A stretch of DNA of 63,398 nucleotides, filler included, from Tortispora ganteri (Eukaryota): assembly GCA_003707115.1 (NCBI GenBank). It is 11 parts of 11 records of this genome, joined end to end, with 100 filler letters (N's around TTAATTAATTAA, not from the genome) between each part and the next. Parts side by side here need not be neighbours in the genome. Positions count along the whole stretch, not along the records: positions 53,021 to 58,243 come from PPNB01000067.1; 10 more parts are not named here. One strand, given 5' to 3'. Position 1 is the stretch's first letter. Each line of letters begins with the position of its first letter. Positions 168 to 61,642 of the stretch are shown piece after piece. The notes under the pieces are model-generated. The model searched no databases, had not been told where the DNA came from, and saw only the letters and a program-made list of their open reading frames with translations. The position numbers and the translations under genes are program-made.

Positions 168-2084
168 TTAACTAGGTCGGTCAATATAAATTTCTACCTC
201 GGCCGCGCTCTTACTGTAGAACACAAAGCGCAAAGGCGTCCACCCCGCCGACAATAACTCATTAATACGCCACACGGGTACTGCACTGTAAGGGTGCACC
301 ACTTTCCATCCACCGCTTCCGATTGCCTCTATGTCCCCGCACCTCATCCCGCTTTCCCCACCGTACAGATACCCTAAGTACCGAGGCGCTGTCTGCGAGA
401 CATAGGATATCTTTTTCGGTCCAAGAACATATATCAGCACCTCAGTCACTTTATCGCTATCAGTAAAGATTGCTAGTTGCCCATCTTCAGTTATGTAATC
501 AACCTTTCTGGAACTCCCCATCCGGTACTTCCCTTCCGCTACGTCACTTTCTTTGTAATCCTCAAGATTCACCGCCCACTGTCGCACCAGCACCGTCTGC
601 GACGGTTCGCACTGGCAAGCGTTTGACACCACTCCGTAGCTGCTGCTATTCGAGACGCAAGAATCCCACTGAGCTGAGCTGGATACGCACCAACCAACAC
701 TTGAACTGACACTCAAACTAGAGCTAAAACTGGAACTGGAACTAGAACTAGAACTAGAACTAAAACTAGAACTAGAACTAAAACTAAAACTCGAACTCGA
801 ACTCGAACTAGCATTAGAACTTGAACTTGAACTGGTGCTGGCGCTGGCGCTGGCACTCGAACTGTCACTCAAATTCCTTAATACCGTTGAAGATTCTGAT
901 ACAACGGACGATTCAGGCCCAACTGAGCTAGCCGCAACTGATGTCCTTGGACTAACTGACCTGGCCGCAACGGACGAACCTGATACAATCGATGACCCAG
1001 AGCCAATTGACGATCCCGGAAAAATACTGGATTGAGATATAATCGATAAGGCTGAACTAACTGAAGGAATAGGATTAACCGGCTCAGGTGATCCACTTGT
1101 AGAGCCATATACTGAAATAGCTATTGTCTCGCCGCTGATTGTAGTGAACATGACACTCAAGATCACAGAGACTCCGGCCTGACGCTTGAATTGACCCGCC
1201 AATCCAAAGCCCGCAACAGGAATGACTATACGGACTGGGTACAAGTATCCACCAGCAAAGTCGACCGGAAAACTTGCTTTGAACCCATTCGAACTGTCTA
1301 GAGGGGCAGTCCCAGAAGTCCCAGAAGTACCAACAAGCTCCATGTTACCGCACCGCATGGCCAATTCACCGTCGTACAGGTACGCGTAAGTATCTGCAAA
1401 GTTACTAGGCTCCTGTGCCTGTACATCTATAAACCCAACGTCGCCTGATGGTTCAAGGTAAAACAGGTACTCGACATAGCCCTGTTCGGATATTGATGCC
1501 GATATAGAGTTTGACGAGACTGTCGCGGTCACATTGTCTCGCTGGTAGTTCCTGTACTCACCGTTCTGGATATCGCTCGACGACAAGTCTACCGCACCCT
1601 CAAATATAGCGGCAAATACTTCACCTGCGCTGTAGGCAGGCCTGGTTGAGCATGCGTCTGCAGGCACAGTCGAGGGAGCTGTCGTTGGAACAGTTACTGT
1701 GGCTGTAGTGGGTGGCGTAGCGGGGTGCGTAGGCGGACGCGGAGGTATTATAGTCTCCGTAATAATGACTGGAATCTCAATGGAGACTTGCACGTCAACC
1801 GACATGGACATGGATACAGACTCGTAGTATGACCAGACGTAGGTGCAGTCGTCTTTGACGAGCGGCGGACTAGGTACATAGGTCACCGTAGCGGGTGTGC
1901 ATTGGTTGCAGTACCAGCCTGAAACTGTAGACACATAAGGCGCGCATTGGTCGTCGTAGACAGTCGCACGTGTATTACCAGACTCAGAAGTATACAAACG
2001 TCCGTAGACAGTAGAAGTTTCAACAGGTGGGCTGCAAATGAGCGTGTTCGTTTCCACGATAGTACTGTATATTGTCTGTACCAT
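168..2084 (-). CDS. Ser-rich adhesin/flocculin-like protein with two PA14/GLEYA-like domains (paralog A)
   Basis: 638-aa ORF: Cys/Thr-rich N-domain, domain 1 (YAYLYDGELAMRC...GGYLYPVRIV), Ser-rich stalk, homologous C-terminal domain 2 (GYLYGGESGMRC...GWTPLRFV). Resemblance to Flo/PA14 'GYYYP.K.VY' is by eye only. Confidence 0.8.
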   Translation of the reverse strand: MVQTIYSTIVETNTLICSPPVETSTVYGRLYTSESGNTRATVYDDQCAPYVSTVSGWYCNQCTPATVTYVPSPPLVKDDCTYVWSYYESVSMSMSVDVQVSIEIPVIITETIIPPRPPTHPATPPTTATVTVPTTAPSTVPADACSTRPAYSAGEVFAAIFEGAVDLSSSDIQNGEYRNYQRDNVTATVSSNSISASISEQGYVEYLFYLEPSGDVGFIDVQAQEPSNFADTYAYLYDGELAMRCGNMELVGTSGTSGTAPLDSSNGFKASFPVDFAGGYLYPVRIVIPVAGFGLAGQFKRQAGVSVILSVMFTTISGETIAISVYGSTSGSPEPVNPIPSVSSALSIISQSSIFPGSSIGSGSSIVSGSSVAARSVSPRTSVAASSVGPESSVVSESSTVLRNLSDSSSASASASTSSSSSSNASSSSSSSFSFSSSSSFSSSSSSSSSSSFSSSLSVSSSVGWCVSSSAQWDSCVSNSSSYGVVSNACQCEPSQTVLVRQWAVNLEDYKESDVAEGKYRMGSSRKVDYITEDGQLAIFTDSDKVTEVLIYVLGPKKISYVSQTAPRYLGYLYGGESGMRCGDIEAIGSGGWKVVHPYSAVPVWRINELLSAGWTPLRFVFYSKSAAEVEIYIDRPS

Positions 2085-6247: not shown

Positions 6248-6590
6248 CTAGGAGGGAGGGAACACAGGGTTTCCGGAAAATCTGATGTGATAATAACCAC
6301 TTTTTGAGGAATATAAAACCAGCCGTAAAGGTGTGTAGCCATTATGCAGCTCTTTGTATACGTTCAATGAGCTGGCAGCATAAGAGGTAAAACTCCATCC
6401 CTCGTTCCCAATGGTCGAGATACTGTCACATGCCATTGCGCTGTCGCCACCGAATATATATCCATCGAATTTTCGGCCAAGACTGGTTGATGAACCAGAC
6501 GACGTATAAAAAACTTGTACGATTTCGTTTGCCACACCAGTAAAATCAATGCCTTTCACGTAAAGCAACACCTCCAGCGTTACTGAGGCA
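6248..6590 (-). CDS. 3' end (C-terminal PA14-like domain) of a divergent family paralog; 5' truncated by contig edge
   Basis: EVLLYV...GYIFGGDSAMACDSISTIG...GYTPLRLVLYS. Confidence 0.75.
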
Positions 6591-13034: not shown

Positions 13035-16015
13035 GAAACAGCTGAAGACGAAGCACTGGCTGACGGAGATACTAAGTCAGAAGAAGAAGACATTTCAGAT
13101 AGAGACGCACTAGCTGAAATAGAACTGATCTCGGAAGGCGATGTACTAGCTGACGAAGAAGCGCTGAAAACCTCAGAAGATGGAGCAGGTGACGCTGAAG
13201 CAGAGGCCGATGCACTGATAACCTCAGAAGAAGGAACAGGTGACGCTGACGCTGAAGCCGAGGCACTGATAACCTCAGAAGATGGTGCAGGAGAAGCTGA
13301 CTCGGAGACCGACGCACTGAGAACCTCAGAAGATGGCTCAGGTGACGCTGATTCGGAGGCCGATGCACTGATAACCTCAGAAGAAGGAGCAGGTGACGCT
13401 GATTCGGAGGCCGATGCACTGATAACCTCAGAAGATGAAACAGGTGACGCTGACGCTGATGCCGAGGCAGAGGCCGAGGCACTGAGAACCTCAGAAGAAG
13501 GAGCAGGTGAAGCTGACTCGGAGACCGACGCACTGAGAACCTCAGAAGATGGCGCAGGAGAAGCTGAAGCAGAGGCCGACGCACTGAAAACCTCAGAAGA
13601 AGGAGCAGGTGACGCTGACTCGGAGGCCGACGCACTGAGAACCTCAGAAGATGGCGCAGGTGACGCTGACTCGGAGGCCGACGCACTGAGAACCTCAGAA
13701 GATGGTGCAGGAGAAGCTGACTCGGAGACCGACGCACTGATAACCTCAGAAGATGGCGCAGGAGAAGCTGAAGCAGAGGCCGACGCACTGAGAACCTCAG
13801 AAGATGGTGCAGGAGAAGCTGAAGCCGACGCAGAGGCACTGGCAACCTCAGAAGATGGCGCAGGTGACGCTGAAGCGGAGACCGACGCACTGAGAACCTC
13901 AGAAGATGGCGCAGGTGACGCTGACTCGGAGGCCGATGCACTGATAACCTCAGAAGATGGTGCAGGAGAAGCTGAAGCAGAGGCCGACGCACTGAGAACC
14001 TCAGAAGAAGGAGAAGGAGAAGCCGACGCCGACGCACTGATAACCTCAGAAGATGGTGCAGGAGAAGCTGAAGCAGAGGCCGACGCACTGAGAACCTCAG
14101 AAGAAGGAGAAGGAGAAGCCGACGCCGACGCACTGAGAACCTCAGAAGAAGGAGAAGGAGAAGCTGAAGCAGAGGCAGAGGCACTGAAAACCTCAGAAGA
14201 TGGTGCAGGAGAAGCTGACTCGGAGACCGACGCACTGAGAACCTCAGAAGATGGTGCAGGAGAAGCTGAAGCTGAGGCCGATGCACTGATAACCTCAGAA
14301 GATGGTGCAGGAGACGCTGACTCGGAGGCCGATGCACTGATAACCTCAGAAGAAGGAACAGGTGACGCTGACTCGGAGGCCGATGCACTGATAACCTCAG
14401 AAGAAGGAACAGGTGACGCTGAAGCAGAGGCAGAGGCACTAAGAACCTCAGAAGATGGTGCAGGAGAAGCTGACTCGGAGACCGACGCACTGAGAGCCTC
14501 AGAAGATGGCGCAGGAGAAGCTGAAGCAGAGGCAGAGGCACTGAGAACCTCAGAAGATGGTGCAGGAGAAGCTGACTCGGAGACCGACGCACTGAGAACC
14601 TCAGAAGATGGTGCAGGAGAAGCTGAAGCTGAGACCGACGCACTGAGAGCCTCAGAAGATGGAGCAGGAGAAGGTGACTCGGAGACCGATGCACTGATAA
14701 CCTCAGAAGATGGTGACGCTGACGCTGAAGCCGAGGCAGAGGCACTGGCAACTTCCGATGACGACACAATAACGGAGGAGATGATCGGATGAACACTAGA
14801 CAAGATATCAGATGATGAGGCGATCAAAGATGATAACGAGCTGTTCGAGTATACTGCCCGTGATGAATAATATGAGGGCGCAGATGAAGGTATATCGGGT
14901 AAAATCGAACTGCTTACAGAGCTGACTGTGGCAGTGATTTCAGTGCTATGCTGCAAATCTGAGGAATGAGTGCTGGTAGAGGAAAAAGGTTGACTTGAAA
15001 GCAGTAGAGACGAAATCGCAAGAGAGGTGGCGGTCTGAATTGGAGAGGAGGTTATGAGGTTGCCACTAGGAGACAAGTCGACAGCTGAGATTTCTATATA
15101 GCCGTTATCGTTTGATGGTACTGGAAATACGACTATCCATTTAGAATCAGACATTGATCGAGATTCTGCGAGTGTGGTGGCGACAGTAGAAGTAACAACT
15201 ACTATGCGGACTGGGTACCATGTTTCCTGAAGGCCAATGAACGACTGGTCTTCGGTGTAGCCATTCTCTGCAGAAAGAGACGCTATGTCAGAAAATTGGA
15301 CGTCGCTGAGACTAGGCAGCGGCATACACTCGACCAGGTGTGGGCCGATGAAGAGGTAAGCTTGAGCGACTGTACCTGCGGGTGGCGAAGAAAGCGAAAG
15401 TCTGAGAGCGGTGATTTCAGCGGCGTTCATACGAAGGTAAACGAAAAGCTCAGTGACACCATAATTAGGGCCAGCTGCAGCGTAAGAGTGTTCATCATGT
15501 TGAGTGTCAACCAACGCATAAGATCCTGTGCGGTATGTGGCATCAGCGATCTGCTGGGGAGACCAATCTGCTGAGTCTGGGTACCATGTTGCAGCGATAG
15601 AGTTTACCGGGGAAAACGTGTAGCAAGAAGACTGTGCGAGAGTTACAGATGTTGAAGGAGTTCCAGGCGTAGAAATATCGGCTGGTGATGATGTAGGGAC
15701 AATGACAGGGTAGCGGTAAGTGATATCACCAGTGACTGAGACGTGGACAGATATGTCCTCGTAGACGCTATAAACATAAGTGTTAGAATTAATAACAAAT
15801 GGAGGTTTTGGTACATAGGAGACTACAGTTGAGGTGCACTCGAAACAGTAGACATTATCGGTGTAGGTAGTGTGTGGACGGCAATAGTCATCATAAGCGG
15901 TGACAATACCTGTAGCTGAGGTGAACCCTTGGGAGTAGAGTGTAGTAGTAGCTAGTGGGGGCGGTGTGCATATGAGTGTCTCGAGCTCGGTGACGGTGCT
16001 CCAAACGGTATGCAT
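13035..16015 (-). CDS. Divergent adhesin-like family member (paralog B) with long Ser/Ala/Pro repeat stalk; 3' truncated
   Basis: Same N-domain (TLICTPP..YDDYC..YCFEC), PA14-like domain (AYLFIG..EC..WYPVRIV), about 30 tandem repeats. Confidence 0.8.
13150..14760 (-). repeat. Intragenic 51-bp (17-aa, ASPAPSSEVLSASxSxS) minisatellite, about 31 units, some 45-bp variants
   Basis: CCTCAGAAGA recurs at 13171, 13222, 13273 ... Confidence 0.92.
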
Positions 16016-29305: not shown

Positions 29306-30436
<1,131 letters not shown>

Positions 30437-40389: not shown

Positions 40390-40406
40390 TATAGTTATCA
40401 TTCTCT

Positions 40407-47693: not shown

Positions 47694-48302
47694 AGTTCTA
47701 GTTTGAGTTCCAGTTCTAGTTCTAGTTTGAGTTCAAGTTCAAGTCCCATTTCGAGTGTCAGTTCGAGCGTATCCAGCTCAGCTCAGTGGAGTTCTAGCGT
47801 GTCGAGTAACAGCAGCTGCGGAGTGGTGTCTAATGCTTGCCCGTGCAAACCGTCGCAGACGCTGCTGGCAAGAAGGTGGGCGGTGGACCTTAGGGAGTAC
47901 AATAAAACGGAGGTAGGCGATGGGAAGTACCGGGTGGGGAATTCCGACAATGTTGACGTGGATATTAAATGGCGTAGTGTACGTATCACCTACAATATTC
48001 CGAATGAAGTGACAGAGGTGCTGGTATATGTTCAAGGACCGAACCAGATAACGGAAGTCGATCGGCTCGATTCCTACTTAGCGTATATGTTTGTTGGGGA
48101 AAGCGGGATGAGGTGCGGGGACATAGAGGCAATCGGAAGCGGTGGATGGAAAGGCGTGCACCCATTCGACTTCGGTGACATTTGGATTATTGATCGGTCA
48201 TTGTCGGAGGGGTGGACGCCGTTGCGATTTGTGTTCTACGGTGAACACCGGGACGTTATTCACATTGTTTTTGCGCCTATGCTATCTGGTTTATATTTGT
48301 AG
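47694..48302 (+). CDS. 3' end (poly-Ser stalk + C-terminal variable domain) of adhesin-like paralog C; 5' truncated
   Basis: CGVVSNACPCKPSQ..GKYR..VTEVLVYV..GESGMRCGDIEAIGSGG..GWTPLRFV. Confidence 0.85.
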   Translation, partial: SSSLSSSSSSSLSSSSSPISSVSSSVSSSAQWSSSVSSNSSCGVVSNACPCKPSQTLLARRWAVDLREYNKTEVGDGKYRVGNSDNVDVDIKWRSVRITYNIPNEVTEVLVYVQGPNQITEVDRLDSYLAYMFVGESGMRCGDIEAIGSGGWKGVHPFDFGDIWIIDRSLSEGWTPLRFVFYGEHRDVIHIVFAPMLSGLYL

Positions 48303-50134
48303 TTATAATTGATCGTTTCAAGGAGTGTGGGGACGGGAGTAGAGAGAGAGAATTGAAGGGAATGGAGACTAATCTCGGCGATAGCGGAGATTAGACATGA
48401 AGTAAGATAGAGTTTAAGAAATTTCCCGATTGGGACAGTTCGGAATGGGAGTATGTAGAAAGCACGTGACGTCCCAAAACGGAAGTACAGCACAAGTCAC
48501 GTGACGTCCCGAAATAGAAATACGATATATATAAAACCCCCGCCACCCGTACTATTGATGCATGTTTGACTGAATGTAAATGAGCAGGCATTGTCTACGT
48601 GAATTGCCAAAACTATCGATACTAAAAGTGCGGTATCTGGAAAGCCTACTAAACTAATGCTAGGTGAACTTAAAATTTAATTAAATGAGCCAGAGGAGAC
48701 TAGTGCGATAACCGCAGCTGTATTGCAAACTGCAGACTGCAAACTGCAAATTGCAGCATGGCAGCAATGCTCGCGGACCAGTAAATCATTGAAGCAGAGC
48801 CTAGAAGGTTGTATACTTTGTTGCTGAACGGAATGCAGGGTGTATCATAATATTAGGCAGTTAATGGCACATGACAAATACCATTGCAGTTGGTCTAACG
48901 GTAGATAAGGTTTTTTATTTTTGCTTTTCGGTAGATTCTAGCGCGCAACGAAATCTATGCACCTTGTTATTGGCGTATCGCTCTAAGAAAAAGTTGAGGA
49001 TTTCATTAACTGTCTATATTCTCGCAGTATGGCAACTGTATAGCATGCGGGATTATGCAGGATGATATGCTTGGAATCGAAGATGGGTACAATGGCGTAT
49101 CGAAAGCAGAAAACTGCAAAGCAGTGCAAATGCGTTACACGAAGAACAAGCGAGAACAACAATTGCAACAGATTTCTTTTACAATTTTTCCCCTTGATGA
49201 AGTTTTGAGCTAAGTTTGCCAATTGGCCAAGAAATACAGGCAGTGCTAATTTCCTTGAATCTCCGGACACCCAGATATCGGTGAAGCTAGTTTACCGCGA
49301 TTAGATTGCGAGCTATCGAGTTGGTCTCCAAAAAGACCAAGAATATAAAACATCTATAGAAATAAGAGTGAGAAGAAGGCAGTATGCGTAAATATATAGA
49401 ATTACGAAAAAGAGACCCTTCAACGATTAATCTCATTAATAAATAATCATGCGATAATTGCGATGAGGTGTTACTTAGATTATTACTGTGAATCAAGGCG
49501 CTTTTTAGACTATTAGCGACTCAACTCGATAAATTTAATCGCTCAAATAGAAACTTAGTAGGCGGTTTTTAAAAAATTATTCAATTACTGCAACCTCAAG
49601 CGAGCGTTTTCAGGGTTTCATTCAATCATATAACCTTGAATATGTATTTAAGCTCTACATATACATTGATCTAAGCTCAGCTTGAAACTTTATTCAACTT
49701 ATAGATAAACTCTTCCATACTTCCCAACAGTCACTAAACATTAATGGCTAGTCAATAATTTTCACAATATAATGAGTTACAATAGCTTTGTTTCTTTAAA
49801 ATCTTACCAGTAAATTGCTAATGCTGCAATACACTAGACGGTACATGCACAGCGCTCGTTCTTACCAGTTACTTTCTGCAGTACAATGAGTGCACGAGTT
49901 TGAGGCTAAAAATCGTTTAGCGTGAACTCTAATAACTTTAAATGCCCAACAACCAAATAAGGCAAACTTTCTTTCTACCACTATGAGATATTCAGGATGA
50001 TTTAAAGAATGTCAAGAAGGCCAGACCAGACAATTAGTGACCAATTCTGCTGGAAAAGCCAATAAGCTTATTATGCTTTTTGCTAGCAGTTATAATAAGG
50101 GTGAGGCACAGCGTTTAGCCCCCAGTTGCTCGCC

Positions 50135-52920
50135 ATGGTGCAGACAATATACAGTACTATCGTGGAAACGAACACGCTCATTTGCAGCCCACCTGTTGAA
50201 ACTTCTACTGTCTATGGGCGCTTGTACACTTCTGAGTCTGTTGCCACACGTGTGACTGTCTACGACGACCAATGCGCGCCTCATGTGTCTACAGTTTCAG
50301 GCTGGTACTGCAACCAGTGCACACCCACTACGGTGACCTATATACCTAGTCCGCCTCTTGTCAAAGACGACTGCACCTACGTTTGGTCATACTACGAGTC
50401 CGTGTCTATGTCCGTATCGGTTGACGTGCACGTCTCCATTGAGATTCCAGTCATTATCACAGAGACTATAGCGCCTACGCCTGCGCCTACTCACCCCGCT
50501 ACAGCTACCGCGACTGTCCCTACGACTGTGCCCACTACTGTGCCAGCAGACGCATGCTCTACCGCACCTTCCTACATCTCAGGCGAAGTATTTGCCGCTA
50601 TATACGAGGGTGCAGTAGACTTGTTGCCCAGCGATATCCAGAACGGTGACTACAGGAACTACCAGCAAGATAATATCGACGCCGCTGTCTCGTCAAAATC
50701 TATATCGGCATCCGTATCCAAACAGGGCTACGTCGAGTACCTGTTTTACCTTGAACCCTCAGGCGACATCGCATTTGTAGATGTACAAGTACAGGATCCT
50801 AGTAACTTTGCAGATACTTACGCGTACCTCTTCGACGGCGAACTGGCCATGCGGTGCGATAACATAGACCTTATTGGCTCTTCTGGCTCTTCTGCCACTG
50901 CCCCTCTGGCTAGTTCAAATGGCTTCAGAGCTAGTTTTTCCGTCGACTTTGCCGGTGGGCACTTGTACCCAATCCGTATAGTCATTCCTGTTGCGGCCTT
51001 TGGATCGGCGTCTCGATTCAAGCGTCAAGCCGGAGTGTCCGTAACCGTGACTATCGTGTTTACTACTAGTAGCGGCGAGATTATAACCTTCTCTGTATTT
51101 GCATCTACAAGTGCATCACCTGAGCCGGTTAACCCTATTCCTTCATTGACTTCTACATTATCGATTCTATCTGTATCCAGTGTTTTTTCGGGATCCTCAG
51201 TTGCTCCTAGCTCCATTGCCTCCGAGTCGTCAATTGCACCTAGCTCCGTTGCCTCAGAATCTTCAGTTGCGCCTAGCTCGGTCACCTCCGAGTCGTCAGT
51301 TGTACCTAGCTCGCTCGCTTCCGAGTCATCAGTTGTGCCTAGCTCTGTTGCATCAGGATCCTCTGTTGCCTCCGAGTCATCAGTTGCGCCTAGCTCCATT
51401 GCCTCAGGATCCTCTGTTACACCCAGTTCTGTTGCCTCCGAGTCATCGGTTGCACCTAGCTCCATTGCATCGGGATCCTCTATCGCCTCTGGGTCATCTA
51501 CCGTTTCTGATTCTAGCGTTAGCTTGGAATCTTTAGCTTCCCCCAGCTCTTCTGCCGCACCAGGATCGAGTATCACCTCAAGTTCTAGCGTGACTTCTGT
51601 TCCAACTACATTGTCTTCTCCAACAAGTCCATCTGCCTCTAGCACTGCACTGAAATCTAGTTTTGGACGGAGCTCATATGGAAATTCTAGCACTAGTCAA
51701 CTCTCTTCTGCCTCAAGTGCAGCAGCCGGATCCTCAGCTGCCTCTAGCTCCTCAGTTGCATCAGGATCCTCAGCTGCACCCGGCTCTAGTGTTTTATCAG
51801 GATCTTCGACTGTATCAGGATCTTCGGCTGCACCCGGCTCTAGTGTTTTATCAGGATCTTCGGCCGCGTCAGGATCCTCAGCTGCACCCAGCTCTAGTGA
51901 TGTATCAGGATCTTCGGCTGCGTCAGGATCCTCAGCTGCACCCAGCTCTAGTGTTTTATCAGGATCTTCAGCTGCGTCAGGATCCTCAGCTGTACCCAGC
52001 TCTAGTACTGTATCAGGATCTTCAGCTGCGTCAGGATCTTCAGCTGCACCCCGCTCCAGTGTTGTATCAGGATTTTCGGCTGCGTCAGGATCTTCAGCTG
52101 CACCCAGCTCCAGTGTTGTATCAGGATCTTCGGCTGCGTCAGGATCATCAGCTGTACCCAGCTCTAGTGTTGTATCAGGATCTTCAGCTGCGTCAGGATC
52201 CTCAGCTGTACCCAGCTCTAGTACTGTATCAGGATCTTCGGCTGCGTCAGGATCTTCAGCTGCACCCCGCTCCAGTGTTGTATCAGGATTTTCGGCTGCG
52301 TCAGGATCTTCAGCTGCACCCAGCTCCAGTGTTGTATCAGGATCTTCGGCTGCGTCAGGATCTTCAGCTGTACCCAGCTCTAGTGTTGTATCAGGATCTT
52401 CAGCTGCGTCAGGATCTTCGGCTGTACCCGGCTCTAGTGTTGTATCAGGCTCATCAGTAGGCCCCGGATCTTGGAGTTTGACTGCAAGTTCTAGTGTTAC
52501 ATCCAGCTCAGTTATTTCTACTGCTTCAAGTGATGCACTAAGTTCTAGTATTGGCTGGAGCTCATATGGTAATTCCAGCACTGGTCATATTGTTTCTGAA
52601 TCGAGTTTTGCTCATGGATCAAGCGCCTTTTCTGATTCTAGTGTTTTCCCCTCTTCATCGATTATAGGTTTGTCAAGCGTTCTATCTTCTTCATCAACTA
52701 TAGGCAGCTCAAGTGGTTTGACGCCTTCGTCAAGTGCTGGAATATCTAGTACCGGATCTCTGTCTTCGATATTGACTAACTCGAGTGCCGCTCAAAGTCT
52801 GTCACCTAGTCTTTCGAGTGGTTTGGCATCTTCTTCAATAATCAGCAACTCAAGTCTGCTGTCGACCTCTTTCTTAAGCTTCTCGAGTGCTGTCGTGTCA
52901 ACTTCTACATTTGGTAATTC
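50135..52920 (+). CDS. Adhesin-like paralog D with long Ser-rich repeat stalk; 3' truncated
   Basis: MVQTIYSTIVETNTLICSPP start shared with paralogs A and E; TATA-like element near 50091. Confidence 0.85.
51760..52450 (+). repeat. Intragenic 54-bp (18-aa, SGSSAASGSSAAPSSSVV) minisatellite, about 13 units
   Basis: Direct reading; 36-bp units also at about 51190-51480. Confidence 0.9.
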
Positions 52921-53020
52921 NNNNNNNNNNNNNNNNNNNNNNNNNNNNNNNNNNNNNNNNNNNNTTAATTAATTAANNNNNNNNNNNNNNNNNNNNNNNN
53001 NNNNNNNNNNNNNNNNNNNN
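52921..53020. other. Artificial contig linker
   Basis: N44-TTAATTAATTAA-N44. Confidence 0.99.
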
Positions 53021-53186
53021 CAGCGATGTTGGCCTGGAAATTGGTTATAACCAAAAGAATATCGTCTCTCATATCTCATGGCAATGCAGTGACGGAGGTG
53101 CTGGTGTATATATTCGGACCAGACAGAATGGAGAGTGTGTATGGACGTATTCCGGGCTATATGCGTAGGATATATCTATTTTGTAG
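53021..53186 (+). pseudogene. Internally deleted 3' remnant of an adhesin-like paralog
   Basis: AVTEVLVYIFGPDRMESVYG jumps to the family-terminal TTTGTAGTTATA, lacking the MRC and PLRF blocks. Confidence 0.6.
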
Positions 53187-55172
53187 TTATACATTGATGA
53201 TTTCAGCGGGTGCAGAGACGAAAGTATCTTGACATGTAGTGTTTATGGGAATTGGGGAGATTGGGAGAGGTTAAGAGGGAATTCTGGGAATGGAGAGAAA
53301 GGAATGATTTAGCAGCATTATTATTAATATTTCTATTATTATTGTTGTTGTTGCTAATGTGTGTAATATATTAGAATTAAGGAAACAGGGAGATGATTAT
53401 GCTTGTATTTAGGAAGGAGTGAAGGGAGGCAAAATAGAGGGAAAGAAGAAGAGTTAGTGAACTGAAGTGGTTTCCCCTTTCAGTAATGATGAAAGAGAGA
53501 AAATAAAGACAGAGGAAGGTCAAGAGGGTGTCTACCAATAAATAGGGGATATATGTAGAGTATATATGAGATAATGTGGATTAAAAAGAGATGGAGATGG
53601 AAGTGAATGATATACTCGGTGATAGCGGAGATTAGACGAGGTCACTTAAGATTGGATGAGGTTAGAAATAAGGATAAGATTCTGACAGATTCCCGATCTA
53701 GTCTGGCACCTATAAAGGCATTCCACTATGTTGCTACCGATTCTAGTGCCGATTTATCTGAAATATTTGCGGCGATGTATATGTCGGAAACTACTAAGTC
53801 CAGAGCAAAATACCTGACCTTCGTTAGTTGTTAGCTCTTTCAAGTCAAATACTGATTCGATGTATGTATTATTTACACTGAATAGCATTGTTAAAGCAGT
53901 TGAGAGTGGTATTATGTTCATGGCTGGACCTGTCGTAGCCATAGTCGGCGATTGGCACTGATGGTCGTAGTTCGTACAACACCAGGCTGTAACTGGACAG
54001 TGCGAGTACGGCGTTCTTCAAGATCATATTTGGCTCAGCTCTGCGCTGGTACTCATTTTAGATTGTTTTTGTTATTGAACAGTACCATCGGCTGGCCGCG
54101 TAGAGTACGTTTTGGACTTTACTGCACTCAGCGTAAAGGGTTCATTTTCAGGATATGATATCCATTCGGGCGTTTAAATTTACACTTATAGACATATTTA
54201 TAGATGCATGTTTGACTGAATGTGAATAAACAGGCATGAATTTGTCCATGTGAATTGCCAAAACGATCGATACTAAAATACGGTGTCTGGAAATCCGACT
54301 GAACAAACGCTAGCTGAACTTAAAATTTAATTAAATGAGCGAGAGAAGATTAGTGCGATAACCGCAGCTGTATTGCAAACTGCAAACTACAAATTGCAGC
54401 ATGGCAGCAATGATCGTGGACCAATAAATCATTGAAGCAGAGCCTGGCAGGTTGTATACTTTATTGCTGAACGAGTGAACGGAATGCAGGGTGTATTATA
54501 AAATAGTCATTGAGCGGTACATGCCGAATATGATCACAGTCGGTCAAGCAGATAATAAGGTTCTTAAATTTTGCTTTCGGTAGATTCTAGAGCGCAACGA
54601 AGTTGGTGAACCTTGATATTGGCATATCTCACTATAAAAACATTGAGGATTTCATTAACTGAAGGTTAAATGAATGATCTAATTCTTGAACGTGCATAAA
54701 ACCTACATACTTATTGAGCAGATCTTAGTTTGATCTTTATTTAAGTTATGGAAAAACTCCTCCTTACTTGCCAACGGTTAGTGCAAATCATTGACTGATC
54801 AATGCCTTCCACGGCATAACAATCTACAATGGATTTGCTTTTTTAGAATAGAACCAGTATCGATTACGCTGCAAGTTGCTGGACGGTACATGCACATTTT
54901 TCCAGTTACATTCTGCGGCGCATTGAGCGCACGAGTTAGAGGCTGAAGTGTTTTAGCCTCAAAGCTAATAGCTCTAAATACGCAGCAACCAATCAAGGTC
55001 AACTTTAAACTTAGGCATTGTGACAGGATTCGGCGACTAGAAGAATGTCAATAAGGCTATGCCGAATAAGACAATGATAAGTTTTCATTGAAGACGGCAA
55101 TAAGCTTATTATGGTTTCTGCCAACATTTAAAAGAGGCACTGTGCGCCGCTTCTTGCCGTCAATCGCTCTCT

Positions 55173-57272
55173 ATGGTACAGACAATATACAGTACTATTG
55201 TAGAAACGAACACGCTCATTTGCAGCCCACCTGTTGAAACTTCTACTGTCTACGGGCGGTTGTACACTTCTGAGTCTGGTGCTAAACGTGTGACTGTCTA
55301 CGACGACCAATGCGCGCCTCGTGTGTCTACAGTTTCAGGCTGGTACTGCAACCAATGCACACCCGCTACGGTGACCTATGTACCTAGTCCGCCGCTCGTC
55401 AAAGACGACTGCACCTATGTCTGGTCATACTACGAGTCCGTGTCTATGTCCGTGTCGGTTGACGTGCACGTTTCTATTGAGATTCCAGTTATTATTACGG
55501 AGACTATAGTACCTCCGCGTCCGCCTACGCACCCCGCTACGCCACCCACTACAGCTGCAGTAACTGTTCCAACGACAGCTCCCTCGACTGTGCCTGCAGA
55601 CGCATGCTCAACTACACCTGCTTACAGCTCAGGCAAAGTATTTGCCGCTATATACGAGGGCGCAGTAGACTTGTCGTCGAGCGATATCCAGAACGGTGAG
55701 TACAGGAACTACCAGCGAGACAATGTGGCCGCTACAGTCTCGTCAAACTCTATATCGGCATTGGTATCCGAACAGGGCTATGTCGAGTACCTTTTCTACC
55801 TTGAACCATCAGCCGACATTGCGTTTGTAGATGTAGAGGCACAGGATCCTAGTAACTTTGCAGATACTTACGCGTACCTCTTTGGTGGCGAATTGGCTAT
55901 GCGGTGCGATAACATGGACCTTATTGGTTCTTCTGGCTCTTCTGCCACTGCCCCTCTGGACAGTTCGAATGGGTTCAAAGCAAGTTTTCCGGTCGACTTT
56001 GCTGGTGGATACTTGTACCCAGTCCGTATAGTCATTCCTGTTGCGGGCTTTGGATCGGCGGGTCAATTCAAGCGTCAGGCCGGAGTCTCTGTGATCTTGA
56101 GTGTCATGTTCACTACCATCAGCGGCGAGACAATAGCTATTTCAGTATATGGTTCTGCAAGTGGATCACCAGAGCCAGTTGGTCCTAGTTCTAGTCTGAG
56201 TTCTAGTTCAAGTTCTAGTTCTAGTCTGAGTTCTAGTTCTAGTTCTAGTTTGAGTTCTAGTTCTAGTTTGAGTTCTAGTTTGAGTTCTAGTTTGAGTTCT
56301 AGTTTGAGTTCTAGTTTGAGTTCTAGTTTGAGTTCTAGTTTGAGTTCTAGTTTGAGTTCTAGTTTGAGTTCTAGTTCTAGTTTGAGTTCTAGTTCTAGTT
56401 TGAGTTCTAGTTTGAGTTCTAGTTCTAGTTTGAGTTCTAGTTTGAGTTCTAGTTCTAGTTTTAATCCTAGTTCTAGTTCTAGTTTTAATTCTAGTTCTAG
56501 TTCTAGTTCTAGTTCTAGTTCTAGTTCTAGTTCTAGTTCTAGTTCTAGTTCTAGTTCTAGTTCTAGTTCTAGTTCTAGTTCTAGTTCTAGTTCTAGTTCT
56601 AGTTCTAGTTCTAGTTCTAGTTCTAGTTCTAGTTCTAGTTCTAGTTCTAGTTCTAGTTCTAGTTCTAGTTCTAGTTCTAGTTCTAGTTTGAGTTCAAGTT
56701 CAAGTCGCAGTTCGAGTGTCAGTTTCAGTTCGAGCGTATCCAGCTTAGCTCAGGGGAGTTCTAGCGTATCGAGTAGCAGCAGCTGCGGAGTTGTGTCAAA
56801 CGCTTGCCAGTGCGAATCTTCACAGAGGCTGCTGGCAAGAGGGTGGGCGGTGGACCTTAGGGAGTACAATGAAACGGAGGTAGCCGATGGGAAGTACCGG
56901 GTGGGGAATTCCAGCAAGGTTGACGTGGAAATTGTTGGGGCTGATTCTCTACATATCCACCACAATAATGTCAAAGCAGTGACGGAGGTGCTGGTATATG
57001 TTCACGGACCGAACCAGATAGGAAATGTCTATGGGCCGCTTGACTACTTAGCGTATTTTTTTGTTGGGGAAAGCGGGATGAGGTGCGGGGACATAGAGGC
57101 AATCGGAAGCGGTGGATCGAAACACGTGCACCCATTCGGGACAGGGCTATTTTGGCAAATTAATATGCCGTTGTCGGAGGGGTGGACGCCGTTGCGATTT
57201 GTGTACTACAGTGGATACTCGGAGGTTGTTCTGATTACTTTTGCGTCTATGCTATCTAGTTTCAATTTGTAG
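55173..57272 (+). CDS. Adhesin-like paralog E (complete, 699 aa)
   Basis: Same two-domain architecture as paralog A with a long poly-Ser stalk. Confidence 0.85.
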   Translation: MVQTIYSTIVETNTLICSPPVETSTVYGRLYTSESGAKRVTVYDDQCAPRVSTVSGWYCNQCTPATVTYVPSPPLVKDDCTYVWSYYESVSMSVSVDVHVSIEIPVIITETIVPPRPPTHPATPPTTAAVTVPTTAPSTVPADACSTTPAYSSGKVFAAIYEGAVDLSSSDIQNGEYRNYQRDNVAATVSSNSISALVSEQGYVEYLFYLEPSADIAFVDVEAQDPSNFADTYAYLFGGELAMRCDNMDLIGSSGSSATAPLDSSNGFKASFPVDFAGGYLYPVRIVIPVAGFGSAGQFKRQAGVSVILSVMFTTISGETIAISVYGSASGSPEPVGPSSSLSSSSSSSSSLSSSSSSSLSSSSSLSSSLSSSLSSSLSSSLSSSLSSSLSSSLSSSLSSSSSLSSSSSLSSSLSSSSSLSSSLSSSSSFNPSSSSSFNSSSSSSSSSSSSSSSSSSSSSSSSSSSSSSSSSSSSSSSSSSSSSSSSSSSSSSSSSSSSSSSSSSLSSSSSRSSSVSFSSSVSSLAQGSSSVSSSSSCGVVSNACQCESSQRLLARGWAVDLREYNETEVADGKYRVGNSSKVDVEIVGADSLHIHHNNVKAVTEVLVYVHGPNQIGNVYGPLDYLAYFFVGESGMRCGDIEAIGSGGSKHVHPFGTGLFWQINMPLSEGWTPLRFVYYSGYSEVVLITFASMLSSFNL
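56187..56700 (+). repeat. (AGTTCT)n and (AGTTCTAGTTTG)n coding microsatellite giving poly-Ser
   Basis: Perfect hexamer run at about 56490-56685. Confidence 0.97.
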
Positions 57273-58243
57273 TTATAAATTGATCGTTTCAAGGAGTGTG
57301 GGGAGTAGAGAGAGAGAGAGAGAGAGAATTGAAGAGGAATGGAGACTAATCTCGGCGATAGCGGAGATTAGATGGGTAAGATAGAGTGTAGATAATTACC
57401 CGATTGGGACAGTCCGAATTGGGAATATACACAAGCACGTGACTTCCCGAAAGGGAAATAAGCACTAGTCACGTGACGTCCCGAAATGGTAATTCGATAT
57501 ATATAAAACCCCCGCCACCCTTACTTAGATATCGAGTCCATGATAGCGCTAAACAATAACATGGATGGATTCATCTCGTCTGTGTCTCTTGACTATCAAG
57601 TGACAAATTTTAGCTATCTTGGCGCATTTGATATAGAAGCCTCTTGAGGTCGCTATTATAAAAACAAGGCGCAGTGCTGGAGCTATAAAAGTACAAGAAT
57701 GACAACAATATCACGTCAACTTATAACCTTAGCGAAATTCGTAAAGCTCGTTCCGGGTGCTACTGAATCATTATAAAATATTGACGTTTATCGTCATATA
57801 AAGCTTTACAATGAATTAACGTCGTTTAGTGGTCTTGAAGGTAGTAATAAACCGAATAAGCATAGTAGCCATGCACAGTTTTTGAGGCTCTATAGTCATG
57901 CATGGTTTTTATGCAATTCGGATATTTACCCTTTTGTGGAAACAACGGCCGATTATTGATCGTAGAGATACGATTGGTTTACGGACTTGCATCTTGAATT
58001 TGGTTCAGAAAGTGGAAATTTTGTGCGTAAACGATACTTTATTGTCGACAAAGTGGACTGCCTCTAGATTCGGAAATGAGATTCTATTTGAATATAAAAA
58101 ATGCAAGCTAGCTTCTCTGCTAAGTCTTCCCGCTGTTAGCTAACTGTAGTTATCTGAATTGGTGCGAAAGGTTACTCAATGGTTCACAGTGTGACTCGAC
58201 GAGCAGCAACGTGTCAGATACTAGTTTGAAGGTGTGATTTTAC

Positions 58244-58343
58244 NNNNNNNNNNNNNNNNNNNNNNNNNNNNNNNNNNNNNNNNNNNNTTAATTAATTAAN
58301 NNNNNNNNNNNNNNNNNNNNNNNNNNNNNNNNNNNNNNNNNNN
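58244..58343. other. Artificial contig linker
   Basis: N44-TTAATTAATTAA-N44. Confidence 0.99.
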
Positions 58344-58470
58344 TGTATTATCTATCCCACCTTTATTAAAGTTTCTTAGCCCCCCACTTCCCCACGTTTA
58401 CGCAGTCAATATATAAAGGCTGCTCAATGGCCCGCATTTCCTTGATTTCGTGAAATATATACTTAAAAAA

Positions 58471-59415
58471 ATGTCTCCTTCTACTCTCCCTCGTGGAATT
58501 TACCCACCAGTTGTCTCTTTTTTCAAAGATGATAAAGACGAGTCCCTCGATACTGAAACACTCAAGAAACATGTTGTTCGCATGGTTCGTGCCGGCTGCG
58601 CCGGTGTAGTTGTTCAAGGTTCCAACGGTGAGGCTGTTCATCTTACTCGCGATGAGCGCAAAGCTAATGTCAAGGCTGCACGCGAAGCGTTTGATGAAGC
58701 TGGTTTTAAGAACGCTGTCCTAATCGCTGGATGCGGTGTCCAGTCCGTCCACGAAACCGTCATCTTTTGCAAAGACGCTGCTGAAGCTGGCGCTGAGTAC
58801 GCAATGGTTTTACCTGCGCATTATTACAGAGCTTGGGTACCTCTTCCCGATATCATGCAATATTTCCGTGATGTTGCTGATGAAAGTCCTATCCCTATTA
58901 TCATCTACAACTTCCCTGCACCTGTTGGAGGAATCGATCTTGATTCAGACACTTTGACCGAGCTAGCTCAGCACCCCAACATTGTCGGTACCAAACTAAC
59001 TTGCGGAAATGTCGGAAAAGCCAGCAGACTTGCACAGATTCCTGGATTCTCTGTAATCGGTGGCGGTGCTGATCTTCAGACTCCTTTCCTGTTCGTTGGT
59101 GCTATTGGAACTATCCCCGGTATTGCCAATATCCTTCCTTCGCTTTGTGTACAGGCTTTTAAGGCTTTTGAAAATGGCGACTATAAGCGCTGTATGGAAC
59201 TACAAGCTACTTTGGCCGAATCCGATTGGTGCGTTATCAAGACTCTGGTTGCCGGAACTAAGTATGCTCTTTCGAAATACTATGGCTATGGTGGTTACGC
59301 TCGACGCCCTATTGCTCGTCCTGACGATAAAATTAAGCAAATTTTCGGCGAAAACTTTGACAAGTTCATCGCCCTCGAAGAACAGGCTTTCAAGGAAACT
59401 GAGGTTAAGCCCTGA
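58471..59415 (+). CDS. DHDPS-family aldolase, MATa-linked allele
   Basis: Protein identical to 36746..37690; stop is TGA instead of TAA. Confidence 0.88.
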   Translation: MSPSTLPRGIYPPVVSFFKDDKDESLDTETLKKHVVRMVRAGCAGVVVQGSNGEAVHLTRDERKANVKAAREAFDEAGFKNAVLIAGCGVQSVHETVIFCKDAAEAGAEYAMVLPAHYYRAWVPLPDIMQYFRDVADESPIPIIIYNFPAPVGGIDLDSDTLTELAQHPNIVGTKLTCGNVGKASRLAQIPGFSVIGGGADLQTPFLFVGAIGTIPGIANILPSLCVQAFKAFENGDYKRCMELQATLAESDWCVIKTLVAGTKYALSKYYGYGGYARRPIARPDDKIKQIFGENFDKFIALEEQAFKETEVKP

Positions 59416-59501
59416 TCCGCTCTACACTTGTGGTACGTTTTTGGAGTTAAATTAAAATCAATATACGATTTATCGACCGATATACTTATTCTCCGTTTAT
59501 T

Positions 59502-61590: not shown

Positions 61591-61642
61591 TGACATTGGT
61601 TCACAGACTACCTGTAGTTCCCGCGCATTATGTACAAATTGT

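What the first reader, a model, noticed from the sequence alone, without database searches (positions are those of the whole stretch)
56848..57272. Hypervariable C-terminal recognition domain: about 48 replacements vs 2-3 silent changes between two copies
Seen: a manual codon alignment of the last ~140 codons of paralog E (56848-57272) with paralog C (47880-48302) gives about 48 amino-acid replacements, one codon indel, and only 2-3 synonymous codon differences. Framework blocks are nucleotide-identical (e.g. TTTGTTGGGGAAAGCGGGATGAGGTGCGGGGACATAGAGGCAATCGGAAGCGGTGGAT). Changes cluster in four patches: KWRSVRITYNIPNE/VGADSLHIHHNNVKA, TEVDRLDS/GNVYGPLD, DFGDIWIIDRS/GTGLFWQINMP, GEHRDVIHIV/SGYSEVVLIT. 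Several patches alternate conserved and variable residues like one face of a beta-sheet. Paralog A (168-600) differs again in the same patches while keeping GESGMRCGDIEAIGSGG. Inference: very strong diversifying selection on a binding surface, with a framework/CDR-like pattern. This suggests a polymorphic recognition system (kin recognition, host or insect adhesion, or an arms race with a toxin or competitor). I do not recognise this family.
Basis: partly seen in the sequence, partly recalled or inferred. Interest (0 to 1): 0.88.

Follow-up and report, generated by a model that had tools for sequence, protein, structure and literature searches.

The report
Hypervariable lectin head of yeast adhesins
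The variable stretch is the C-terminal sugar-binding-type (PA14/Flo5-like) head of a yeast surface-adhesin-like gene family, and the copies differ almost only in the loops that form the binding pocket in known relatives, a pattern known from other yeast adhesin families.

Summary
E versus C has 140 aligned codons, 48 replacements, 3 silent-only codons, one codon indel and a 58-nt identical block.

The "window" is really 11 unlinked contigs of a fragmented yeast assembly joined by N spacers. The copies are therefore not neighbours.

The domain is not an unknown family. A 12-sequence AlphaFold model (pLDDT 83.7) matches fungal PA14/Flo5-like adhesin domains best: KpFlo2A Z 10.8, Lg-Flo1 10.3, Epa9/1/6 and Cea1A 8.4-9.2.

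Three patches fall on calcium-binding loop 1, loop L3 and calcium-binding loop 2 of Cea1A. The fourth (patch 1) lies outside the aligned stretch and is placed near L2 only by counting. The Ca-binding DcisD and Asn residues are absent.

E-C omega is 1.6-3.0 by four estimators. The N-terminal and internal domains of the same genes give 0.13-0.36.

Silent divergence is uneven: framework 0.015, patches 0.335, 3' flank 11.5%. E also resembles A at its 5' end but C at its 3' end. Recombination therefore shaped the mosaic as well.

Verdict: a new variant of a known kind, of moderate interest. Diversifying selection is partly supported. Expression, secretion and ligand are untested.

The parts
55173..57272 (+). 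Gene E, the complete 699-aa ORF. It has an N-terminal Cys-containing region, an internal PA14-like domain, a long Ser-rich stalk and a C-terminal PA14-like head.
55590..56036 (+). E internal PA14/GLEYA-like domain. It is conserved among A, D and E (omega 0.27-0.36).
   Evidence: HMM of the C-terminal domain hits it at i-E 1.5e-11. Pfam GLEYA gives E 0.037-0.055, below the cut-off. dN/dS is.
56084..56790 (+). Ser-rich repeat stalk (12/18-nt periodic repeats).
56790..57269 (+). E C-terminal PA14/Flo5-like lectin-type domain (the 160 residues that were modelled).
56934..56978 (+). Variable patch 1 (VGADSLHIHHNNVKA; model residues 49-63, loop-strand-loop). It lies roughly at loop L2 of PA14 adhesins.
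   Evidence: The L2 assignment is only approximate: it was counted back from the alignment.
57021..57044 (+). Variable patch 2 (GNVYGPLD; model residues 78-85). It aligns with calcium-binding loop 1 (the DcisD position) of Cea1A. No DD dipeptide is present here.
57060..57117 (+). Conserved block (FVGESGMRCGDIEAIGSGG), nucleotide-identical in E and C, with 52 nt also identical in A. It contains the invariant Cys.
57138..57170 (+). Variable patch 3 (GTGLFWQINMP; model residues 117-127). It starts at the position of loop L3 (Cea1A K227/N230) and runs into the next strand.
57210..57239 (+). Variable patch 4 (SGYSEVVLIT; model residues 141-150). It aligns with Cea1A N257 plus CBL2 positions I-IV, which determine specificity.
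47694..48302 (+). Copy C: only the 3' end of the gene (end of stalk plus C-terminal domain). It is cut by the start of its contig.
168..2084 (-). Gene A, the complete 638-aa ORF. Its promoter is 97-98% identical to E's and its 5' half is about 90% identical, but its C-terminal domain is only 56% identical at the amino-acid level.
50126..52920 (+). Gene D: the 5' part and stalk, running off the end of its contig. It lies in tandem downstream of C.
6248..6590 (-). Copy X: a divergent C-terminal domain (32% identical to E), cut by a contig end.
3950..5520 (-). Pseudogene Y: a decayed family member with frameshifts and stops, lying upstream of A.
53026..53232 (+). Truncated relic of a C-terminal domain upstream of E. 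It is collinear with pseudogene Y.
13035..16015 (-). Distant family member (N-terminal region about 31% identical, internal PA14-like domain, 51-nt repeat stalk). It runs off its contig.

Best explanation
The region encodes the C-terminal PA14/Flo5-like (GLEYA-type) beta-sandwich lectin head of a lineage-restricted, tandemly arrayed yeast adhesin-like family. Each protein has an N-terminal Cys-containing region, a conserved internal PA14-like domain, a Ser-rich stalk and a variable C-terminal PA14-like head. Three of the four hypervariable patches align with calcium-binding loop 1, L3 and calcium-binding loop 2, which build the ligand pocket in solved relatives. The fourth (patch 1) lies near L2 only by residue counting. 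Different copies would therefore carry different pockets, and hence presumably different ligand specificities, on one shared scaffold. The calcium ligands of classical members are missing, so binding is probably not the classical Ca-dependent sugar mode. The pattern arose in a gene family that evolves by birth and death and exchanges segments by ectopic recombination or gene conversion, which keeps framework, promoter and 5' halves similar. Selection for amino-acid change acts on the pocket loops. Shown: the fold, the loop mapping (through a weak sequence alignment plus a strong fold match), the excess of replacements for E-C, the uneven silent divergence and the tandem/pseudogene context. Inferred: surface display, ligand binding and the selective agent.
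For: Fold. The model built from 12 domain sequences has pLDDT 83.7 and pTM 0.83. The VIA-align second look puts only fungal PA14 adhesin domains on top, covering model residues 1-158. KpFlo2A 6hos scores Z 10.8 (rmsd 3.2, 150 aligned), Lg-Flo1 scores 10.3, and Epa9A/Epa1A/Epa6A/Cea1A score 8.3-9.2. Foldseek gives TMq 0.52 for Epa1A and 0.46 for Cea1A, both with probability 1.00.

Sequence link. The C-terminal profile finds the internal domain at i-E 1.5e-11 and finds Tortispora caseinolytica proteins. One of these scores 25.6 bits on Pfam GLEYA against a cut-off of 26.2. The best PDB sequence hit of the family profile is Cea1 (E 0.6).

Loop mapping. In that alignment, Cea1 I-D191-D192 falls on patch 2, K227/N230 on the start of patch 3, and F255-V-N257-A-L-E-R on 'YY-SGYSE', which is patch 4. 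Residue roles come from passages of PMC6218569. [quoted passage not shown]

Selection. E-C omega is 2.03 (NG86), 1.60 (LWL85), 2.96 (YN00) and 2.38 (ML). The bootstrap interval is 1.27-3.71 and Fisher p is 0.021. In patch-only simulations, 0 of 400 runs at omega 1 gave as few silent differences as observed, and omega of 2-10 fits. Differences by codon position are 26/22/15.

Contrast within the same genes. The N-terminal region shows omega of 0.13-0.24 and the internal domain 0.27-0.36.

Family context. The copies lie in tandem on contigs 1, 9 and 10, with decayed relics upstream of A and E.
Against: Only one pair (E-C) gives omega above 1. E-A gives 0.81-0.93 and C-A gives 0.82-1.11. The pair was picked because it looked striking, and the patch borders were set by amino-acid differences, which inflates patch omega.

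Silent divergence is very uneven. The framework has 1.0 per 64.8 sites, the patches show pS of 0.335, and the 3' flank has 28 differences in 244 nt. A simple model of recent duplication plus selection does not fit this.

A Sawyer-type run test with only three sequences found no conversion tract (p 0.56).

The Cea1 alignment that carries the loop mapping is not significant on its own (E 0.6). I had no model coordinates, so exposure and spatial clustering of the variable residues were not measured.

No N-terminal signal peptide and no GPI signal are visible by eye. The Tortispora gene models start at the same motif, so surface display is not shown.

Pfam GLEYA is below its cut-off for the internal domain and gives no hit for the C-terminal domain.

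Two T. caseinolytica paralogues (P0006/P0023, 91% identical) show evenly spread differences rather than this patch pattern.

The linkage of patches along one gene rests on the given assembly alone.
Confidence: 0.6

Rival explanations
1. The mosaic comes from recombination alone. The framework, stalk and 5' halves are repeatedly homogenised among family members by gene conversion. The pocket loops are old, weakly constrained segments that escape conversion because they are too divergent. No positive selection is needed.
For: Framework silent divergence for E-C is 0.015, against 11.5% in the non-coding 3' flank and 10% in the stalk. With 64.8 silent sites about 7 silent differences would be expected and 1 is seen (my arithmetic, Poisson p about 0.005). 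Among conserved-residue codons, silent differences occur in 2 of 9 in the patches against 1 of 83 in the framework (my hypergeometric p about 0.024). For the E-A pair, dS is 0.17 in the 5' 345 codons but 0.48 in the C-terminal domain, and E's head is closest to C's. Patch distances are nearly as large for E-C as for the comparisons with A. Omega is about 1 for the comparisons with A.
Against: Neutral patches are rejected by the simulation: 0 of 400 runs at omega 1 gave as few NG86 silent differences as the observed 9.83, with a mean of 16.6. First and second codon positions differ more often than third positions, 26/22/15. Even the framework has 17 replacements against 1 silent change. The run test for conversion tracts was not significant. 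The neighbouring internal domain of the same fold is under clear purifying selection, so loss of constraint is not general.
Confidence: 0.22
2. The pattern is an assembly artefact. A short-read assembler threaded different family members, or the two haplotypes, through the identical blocks, so 'E', 'C' and 'A' are chimeric paths and the pairwise statistics are meaningless.
For: The window is a string of 5-6.6 kb contigs. Three contig pairs are 98-99.3% identical, and both mating-type idiomorphs are present, so two haplotypes were assembled. Logan contigs of runs X1 and X2 break at every conserved block, and no listed piece spans the domain. E-specific pieces have depth of 102-125 against 291 for the unique flank.
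Against: Each E-specific patch piece occurs with 0 other letters in contigs of both runs, and C-type variants appear as separate contigs. The patch variants themselves are therefore real, whatever their phase. The conserved blocks are at most 58 nt, which is shorter than ordinary reads. E and A are intact ORFs of 699 and 638 aa. The excess of replacements holds patch by patch and does not depend on linkage.
Confidence: 0.07
3. The pattern comes from targeted mutagenesis of the patches, for example retroelement-templated (DGR-like) or repeat-induced point mutation, rather than from selection or recombination.
For: The differences are sharply localised between identical blocks. Silent sites inside the patches are also changed. 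A copia-type retrotransposon is present in the assembly (8677-12711).
Against: The substitution spectrum shows no base bias: 28 transitions and 50 transversions, with all 12 change types present. That is neither adenine-specific nor C-to-T. The retrotransposon is on an unlinked contig. No template copy of the patches was found in the window. No such system is known to me in yeasts (from my own knowledge).
Confidence: 0.02

Closest known systems
Fungal PA14/Flo5-like adhesin A domains (S. cerevisiae Flo1/Flo5, Lg-Flo1, C. glabrata Epa1/6/9, Komagataella Cea1/KpFlo2)
   Same: They share the beta-sandwich fold over almost the whole domain (Z 8.3-10.8). They share a Ser/Thr-rich stalk and multigene families, and paralogues differ mainly in the pocket loops, above all CBL2. 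CBL2 is described as hypervariable and specificity-determining (passages).
   Different: Here the domain is at the C-terminus, and a second, conserved copy sits inside the protein. The DcisD motif and the CBL2 Asn that hold the calcium are absent. Only one invariant core Cys is present instead of the CC motif. No signal peptide or GPI signal is visible. Pfam GLEYA/PA14 models do not reach their cut-off.
Fission-yeast and filamentous-fungal GLEYA adhesins (Linder and Gustafsson 2008, as cited in PMC8621652 and PMC6218569; the original paper was not read)
   Same: These are GLEYA-type lectin domains in proteins without GPI signals and with repeat regions (passage). From my own recollection, the binding domain is C-terminal in the S. 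pombe proteins, as it is here.
   Different: That cluster is said to keep the DcisD motif and to have typical signal peptides. Neither is seen here. There is no significant sequence match, since the only relatives found are from Tortispora.
KpFlo4a-f of Komagataella (PA14-like proteins without DcisD)
   Same: They are PA14-like family members that lack the calcium-binding DcisD motif (passage).
   Different: Only one sentence was seen. Their architecture, variability and function were not compared here.
Hyr/Iff-like (Hil) adhesin family of Candida species
   Same: Both show adhesin family expansion, with divergence after duplication discussed in terms of positive selection and gene conversion (search listing and abstract start only).
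   Different: The binding-domain fold and the lineage are different. The paper was not read beyond the listing.

Membership tests
Fungal PA14/Flo5-like (PA14 PF07691 / GLEYA PF10528) adhesin domain | PA14-type beta-sandwich fold | tested here: met
   The model has pLDDT 83.7. The top 9 VIA-align rows are all fungal PA14 adhesin domains, Z 8.7-10.8, with 149-151 residues aligned of 160. Foldseek gives probability 1.00 and TMq of 0.46-0.52.
Fungal PA14/Flo5-like (PA14 PF07691 / GLEYA PF10528) adhesin domain | Pfam GLEYA or PA14 model at or above the gathering score | tested here: not met
   The internal domain scores 14.2-14.8 bits against a cut-off of 26.2. The C-terminal domain gives no hit at E up to 1. 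The nearest Tortispora relative, P0004, scores 25.6 bits.
Fungal PA14/Flo5-like (PA14 PF07691 / GLEYA PF10528) adhesin domain | DcisD motif in calcium-binding loop 1 | tested here: not met
   None of the 12 aligned domains has a DD dipeptide in the loop before the Y-x-F-x-G strand. Cea1 D191-D192 aligns to L-D (E), D-S (C), P-R (A) and A-D (internal domains).
Fungal PA14/Flo5-like (PA14 PF07691 / GLEYA PF10528) adhesin domain | Calcium-ligand Asn at the start of calcium-binding loop 2 | tested here: not met
   The aligned residues are S (E), G (C) and S (A). There is no Asn in SGYSE, GEHRD or SKSAA. This rests on an alignment with E 0.6.
Fungal PA14/Flo5-like (PA14 PF07691 / GLEYA PF10528) adhesin domain | [quoted passage not shown] | tested here: inconclusive
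   There is one invariant Cys (C99, aligned with the first C of the Cea1 'CC') and a nearly invariant N-terminal Cys (C6). Disulfide pairing could not be read without model coordinates.
Fungal PA14/Flo5-like (PA14 PF07691 / GLEYA PF10528) adhesin domain | GPI cell-wall-protein layout: signal peptide, N-terminal A domain, Ser/Thr stalk, C-terminal GPI signal | tested here: not met
   A stalk is present. However, the variable domain is C-terminal and ends the protein (strands reach residue 153 of 160). By eye there is no hydrophobic N-terminal leader and no C-terminal hydrophobic tail. No predictor was available.
Fungal PA14/Flo5-like (PA14 PF07691 / GLEYA PF10528) adhesin domain | Calcium-dependent glycan binding | not testable with these tools
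   This needs glycan arrays or binding assays.
Fission-yeast-type GLEYA adhesins | Ligand-binding GLEYA domain with no GPI signal, repeats elsewhere, and an N-terminal signal peptide | tested here: inconclusive
   No GPI signal and a repeat region are seen, and the head is C-terminal. No signal peptide is seen by eye. The DcisD motif said to be kept in that cluster is absent here.
Diversity-generating retroelement or RIP-type targeted mutagenesis | Base-specific substitution bias (adenine-specific, or C-to-T) | tested here: not met
   There are 28 transitions and 50 transversions, with all 12 change types represented.

The most novel reading that the evidence does not exclude
A and E could be the two alleles of one locus in a heterozygous a/alpha diploid. 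They share collinear flanks and promoters that are 97-98% identical, yet their heads are only 56% identical. The E- and C-specific pieces sit at roughly half, or less, of the depth of the unique flank. On this reading the C-terminal head is a hyper-polymorphic recognition determinant kept diverse by balancing or diversifying selection. The nucleotide-identical framework blocks would then serve as homology anchors for cassette-like exchange of pocket loops among tandem copies and pseudogene relics. That would be a fungal counterpart of mosaic surface-gene systems, built on a calcium-independent PA14 pocket.
Probability: 0.1. Interest if true: 0.75.

Novelty: new variant of a known kind. Interest (0 to 1): 0.42.

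Why it matters
Yeast adhesins of the PA14/Flo5 type are the textbook case of a fixed lectin scaffold whose pocket loops set the specificity. So far this rests on a few model and pathogenic yeasts. This family comes from an early-branching budding-yeast lineage: the only relatives found are six proteins of Tortispora caseinolytica. It shows the same logic in a different build. It has two PA14-like domains per protein, one conserved and one hypervariable. The variable one sits at the C-terminal tip, and the calcium ligands are lost.

If the heads bind different ligands, the family offers a natural series of pocket variants on a near-identical scaffold, which is useful for learning how PA14 pockets are retargeted. 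It would also be a test case for how recombination and selection together build 'framework plus variable loop' genes outside immune systems.

A full-text search for Tortispora together with adhesin found 0 papers.

Tried and rejected
- **Whole genome:** none is held for this window, so other copies could not be collected.
- **Word-indexed protein search:** the search with E residues 555-699 scored 236 candidates, none at E <= 0.001.
- **Full HMMER scan:** it gave 19 proteins at E <= 0.001. All 19 were scanned with Pfam. I read 5 as true relatives (P0004, P0006, P0007, P0015, P0022). Twelve are ankyrin-repeat proteins that match only a G-x-TPL-like stretch and were dropped as spurious. P0016 and P0017 gave only weak repeated partial matches and were left out of the alignment.
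- **PDB sequence search with the 3-sequence profile:** it found only designed ankyrin proteins, which are spurious.
- **First structure model:** built from 3 sequences (pLDDT 72.2), it gave only middling fold matches. Foldseek found 1 match at E <= 0.001, and the wide VIA-align search had a best Z of 8.0, to a Bacteroides glycan-binding protein. The 12-sequence model resolved this.
- **ESM Atlas look-up of the N-terminal 135 residues:** no usable hit.
- **Earlier notes of this scan:** nothing by place or by sequence.
- **Rfam on the whole window:** 0 matches.
- **Sequencing runs:** no RNA holder is listed, so expression is untested. Two DNA runs (X1, X2) hold 0.82 of the sampled words. Their summed depth over the conserved block (3663 and 2965) is about 10-13 times that of the unique flank (291 and 294). 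This hints at more copies than the three seen, but it is not a copy number.
- **Homodimer prediction of the head (2 copies):** no support (score 0.03, mark 0.32).
- **Sawyer-type run test for conversion tracts:** not significant (p 0.56 for E-C).
- **Upstream exon with a signal peptide:** I looked for one in the alignment of the A, D and E upstream regions and found no conserved one.
- **Replication in another species:** the T. caseinolytica pair P0006/P0023 (91% identical) does not show the patch pattern.
- **RIP and DGR-type mutagenesis:** rejected on the substitution spectrum.
Full report
**1. What the window is.**
The 63,398 bases are not one locus. Ten spacers of N44-TTAATTAATTAA-N44 split them into 11 pieces of 6590 down to 5055 bp, in order of size. 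They are therefore concatenated contigs of a fragmented assembly. No whole genome is held.

The genes are those of a budding yeast. They include a copia-type retrotransposon, PRP19, a PTR2 transporter, SNF5, saccharopine dehydrogenase and APN2.

Contig pairs 4/5, 6/8 and 7/11 are 98.2-99.3% identical over kilobases. Contigs 7 and 11 carry the two mating-type idiomorphs between the same flanks. Two haplotypes of an a/alpha diploid therefore seem to have been assembled side by side.

**2. The observation.**
E (55173-57272) and A (168-2084, minus strand) are complete ORFs of 699 and 638 aa. C (47694-48302) is only a 3' end cut by its contig start.

The codon alignment of the last 140 codons of E and C gives 48 replacements, 3 silent-only codons, one codon indel and 81 nucleotide differences. 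The differences are strongly clustered:
- The longest identical run is 58 nt, reached by about 1 of 10000 permutations.
- The dispersion index is 2.64, reached by 0 of 10000 permutations.

The four patches and the third version in A are as described.

**3. The gene family.**
tblastn and HMM scans show more members:
- D (50126-52920) lies in tandem after C.
- A divergent head X lies at 6248-6590.
- A decayed pseudogene Y lies upstream of A.
- A truncated relic lies upstream of E.
- A distant member lies at 13035-16015.

Contig 1 (reversed) and contig 10 are collinear. The 600 bp upstream of A and E are 97-98% identical, the first 2.3 kb 89.7%, and the heads only 75% at the nucleotide level.

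Each protein has four parts: an N-terminal region with conserved cysteines, an internal domain, a Ser-rich stalk and the C-terminal domain. The internal domain is homologous to the C-terminal one (i-E 1.5e-11).

**4. What the domain is.**
Pfam gives only a sub-threshold GLEYA hit on the internal domain and nothing on the C-terminal one.

A full HMMER scan of 1.84 billion representatives gave 19 hits at E <= 0.001. Twelve are ankyrin proteins that match by chance, and two are weak repeats. The 5 real relatives are all 'hypothetical proteins' of Tortispora caseinolytica NRRL Y-17796 (Trigonopsidaceae). So is P0023, a sixth protein that shares a cluster with one of them. The window therefore probably comes from a related yeast (inference). 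One of the relatives scores 25.6 bits on GLEYA against a cut-off of 26.2.

A first model from 3 sequences was mediocre (pLDDT 72.2) and its fold matches were ambiguous. A model from 12 domain sequences (alignment A3) reached pLDDT 83.7 and pTM 0.83. On that model:
- The best VIA-align rows are all fungal PA14/Flo5-like adhesin domains over residues 1-158.
- KpFlo2A scores Z 10.8 (rmsd 3.2, 150 aligned) and Lg-Flo1 scores 10.3.
- Epa9A, Epa1A, Epa6A and Cea1A score 8.3-9.2.
- Bacterial and enzyme PA14 domains score 6.8-7.8.
- Foldseek agrees, with TMq 0.52 for Epa1A and 0.46 for Cea1A.

The fold is thus settled. Family membership in the strict Pfam sense is not.

**5. Where the patches lie.**
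The family profile's best hit among PDB sequences is Cea1 (5a3l). The E-value is only 0.6, but the alignment is anchored on the G-x-x-A-x-x-C and Y-P-x-R-x-V motifs. Using the residue roles given in PMC6218569 (passages), the alignment places:
- Cea1 D191-D192 (DcisD, calcium-binding loop 1) on patch 2;
- K227/N230 (loop L3) on the start of patch 3;
- N257 plus A258-L259-E260-R261 (calcium-binding loop 2, positions I-IV, which make most ligand contacts) on S-GYSE in E, G-EHRD in C and S-KSAA in A, which is patch 4.

Patch 1 lies about where loop L2 should be, by counting back from the alignment. This placement is approximate.

In the model, patches 2 and 4 are the loops 82-85 and 142-144 together with the adjoining strand ends. 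Within strands, conserved and variable residues alternate, for example W122 and I124 against Q123 and N125.

The calcium ligands are missing. No DD dipeptide occurs in that loop in any of the 12 aligned domains, and no Asn occurs at the CBL2 position in E, C or A. PA14-like proteins without DcisD are known (KpFlo4a-f).

I could not obtain model coordinates. Solvent exposure and spatial clustering were therefore not measured.

**6. Selection or recombination.**
For E-C, whole-domain omega is 2.03 (NG86), 1.60 (LWL85), 2.96 (YN00) and 2.38 (ML). The bootstrap 95% interval is 1.27-3.71 and Fisher p is 0.021. In the same genes, the N-terminal region gives 0.13-0.24 and the internal PA14-like domain gives 0.27-0.36.

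Against a simple reading:
- E-A and C-A give 0.81-1.11.
- Silent divergence is very uneven. In the 97 framework codons there is 1.0 silent difference per 64.8 sites (pS 0.015) against 17 replacements. In the 43 patch codons pS is 0.335 and pN is 0.533.
- The non-coding 3' flank differs at 28 of 244 aligned bases, and the stalk at 19 of 186.
- At the flank's rate about 7 silent differences would be expected in the framework and 1 is seen (my arithmetic, p about 0.005).

Simulations of the patch codons show that path averaging alone yields 4.6 apparent silent differences. None of 400 runs without silent change reached the observed 9.83, and none of 400 neutral runs (omega 1) was as low. Omega of 2-10 fits. 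Differences by codon position are 26/22/15.

E's 5' half is closest to A (dS 0.17), while its head is closest to C and far from A (dS 0.48).

Taken together, the family exchanges segments. That keeps frameworks, stalk ends, promoters and 5' halves alike. The pocket loops also carry an excess of replacements. A Sawyer-type test with three sequences did not detect tracts (p 0.56). The substitution spectrum (28 transitions, 50 transversions) rules out RIP-like or adenine-directed mutagenesis.

**7. Assembly caveat.**
Two public DNA runs hold the stretch (0.82 of sampled words). No RNA holder is listed, so expression is untested.

Their Logan contigs reproduce the E-specific pieces 56898-57004 (run X1) and 57175-57293 (both runs) with 0 other letters. 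They also show C-type and further variants as separate contigs. However, they break at each conserved block, and no piece spans the domain. The patch variants are therefore real, while their linkage rests on the given assembly.

Depths hint at many more copies sharing the conserved block, and at E- and C-specific pieces at about 0.35-0.5 of the unique flank. The tool warns that these figures are not copy numbers.

**8. Function.**
The most likely reading is an adhesin-like protein that presents a PA14-type head at the end of a Ser-rich stalk. The pocket differs between copies and is not the classical calcium site. A second, conserved PA14-like domain sits nearer the N-terminus.

No signal peptide or GPI signal is visible by eye, and the Tortispora gene models start at the same motif. 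Surface display is therefore inferred from architecture only.

A homodimer prediction of the head gave no answer (reported only as tried). The T. caseinolytica paralogue pair P0006/P0023 (91% identical) shows no such patches, so the extreme pattern is not general to the family.

**9. Novelty.**
Several things were already known:
- pocket-loop hypervariability among PA14 adhesin paralogues;
- GLEYA adhesins without a GPI signal (passage);
- PA14-like proteins without DcisD;
- adhesin families that expand and diverge after duplication, discussed in terms of positive selection and gene conversion (listing only).

That the binding domain is C-terminal in the S. pombe proteins is from my own recollection (for the rest).

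New here is the combination, in a lineage where nothing is in print (0 papers for Tortispora plus adhesin). The combination is:
- a two-domain layout with one conserved and one hypervariable PA14-like domain;
- a calcium-ligand-free pocket;
- an unusually sharp mosaic of framework and loops.

I rate it a new variant of a known kind, with interest 0.42.

Noticed in passing
window 36599-42162 and 58344-63398: These two contigs share flanks that are 99.1-99.3% identical (a DHDPS-family gene and APN2) but carry different middles. One has a KN-type homeodomain gene (37916-38902) plus a MAT alpha1 HMG-box gene (39910-40389, Pfam E 7.8e-11). The other has a homeodomain gene (59502-60149) plus an HMG-box gene (60898-61590). 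They look like the MATalpha and MATa idiomorphs of one locus, so the sequenced strain is probably an a/alpha diploid, or it carries both cassettes.
   Followed up: partly
whole window (spacers at 6591-6690, 12935-13034, 19236-19335, 25065-25164, 30812-30911, 36499-36598, 42163-42262, 47594-47693, 52921-53020, 58244-58343): The window is 11 contigs in order of size, joined by N44-TTAATTAATTAA-N44 linkers. Any finding that relies on distances or order between pieces of this window is unsafe.
   Followed up: yes
window 19336-25064 vs 25165-30811; 30912-36498 vs 42263-47593: These are near-duplicate contig pairs (99.2% over 5.6 kb, and 98.2-98.9% in inverted orientation). They carry PTR2, SNF5 and LYS1, and a 513-aa protein without a Pfam match. 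They are most simply the two haplotypes of a heterozygous diploid, not paralogues.
   Followed up: partly
window 33612-34667 and 44088-44954: There is a tandem array of a 189-nt unit (4-5 copies, 97-98% identical) that is open on one strand as a 63-residue repeat. It has no Rfam match and only incidental Pfam matches, and its nature is unknown.
   Followed up: partly
window 7372-12711: A Ty1/copia-type retrotransposon has an intact 1344-aa pol-like ORF (8677-12711) and an upstream 409-aa gag-like ORF (7372-8601) that has no Pfam match.
   Followed up: no
window 57060-57117, 48090-48147, 308-359: Fifty-two nucleotides encoding GESGMRCGDIEAIGSGG are identical in A, C and E, although A's framework differs from the others at about a quarter of silent sites. 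About 3 silent differences would be expected (my arithmetic). This is suggestive of local homogenisation or nucleotide-level constraint, but it is not significant on three sequences.
   Followed up: partly
window 55173-55580 (and 1680-2084 minus strand, 50135-50540, 15700-16015 minus strand): The conserved N-terminal roughly 110-residue region (TVxETxxLCxPP...TTVY...C.P...G.YC..CTP..VTY.P.PP.VKD..TYVW.YYE) with 5-6 cysteines has no Pfam or Atlas match. In one Tortispora protein (P0022) it follows the end of another PA14-like domain, so it may be a module of its own.
   Followed up: partly
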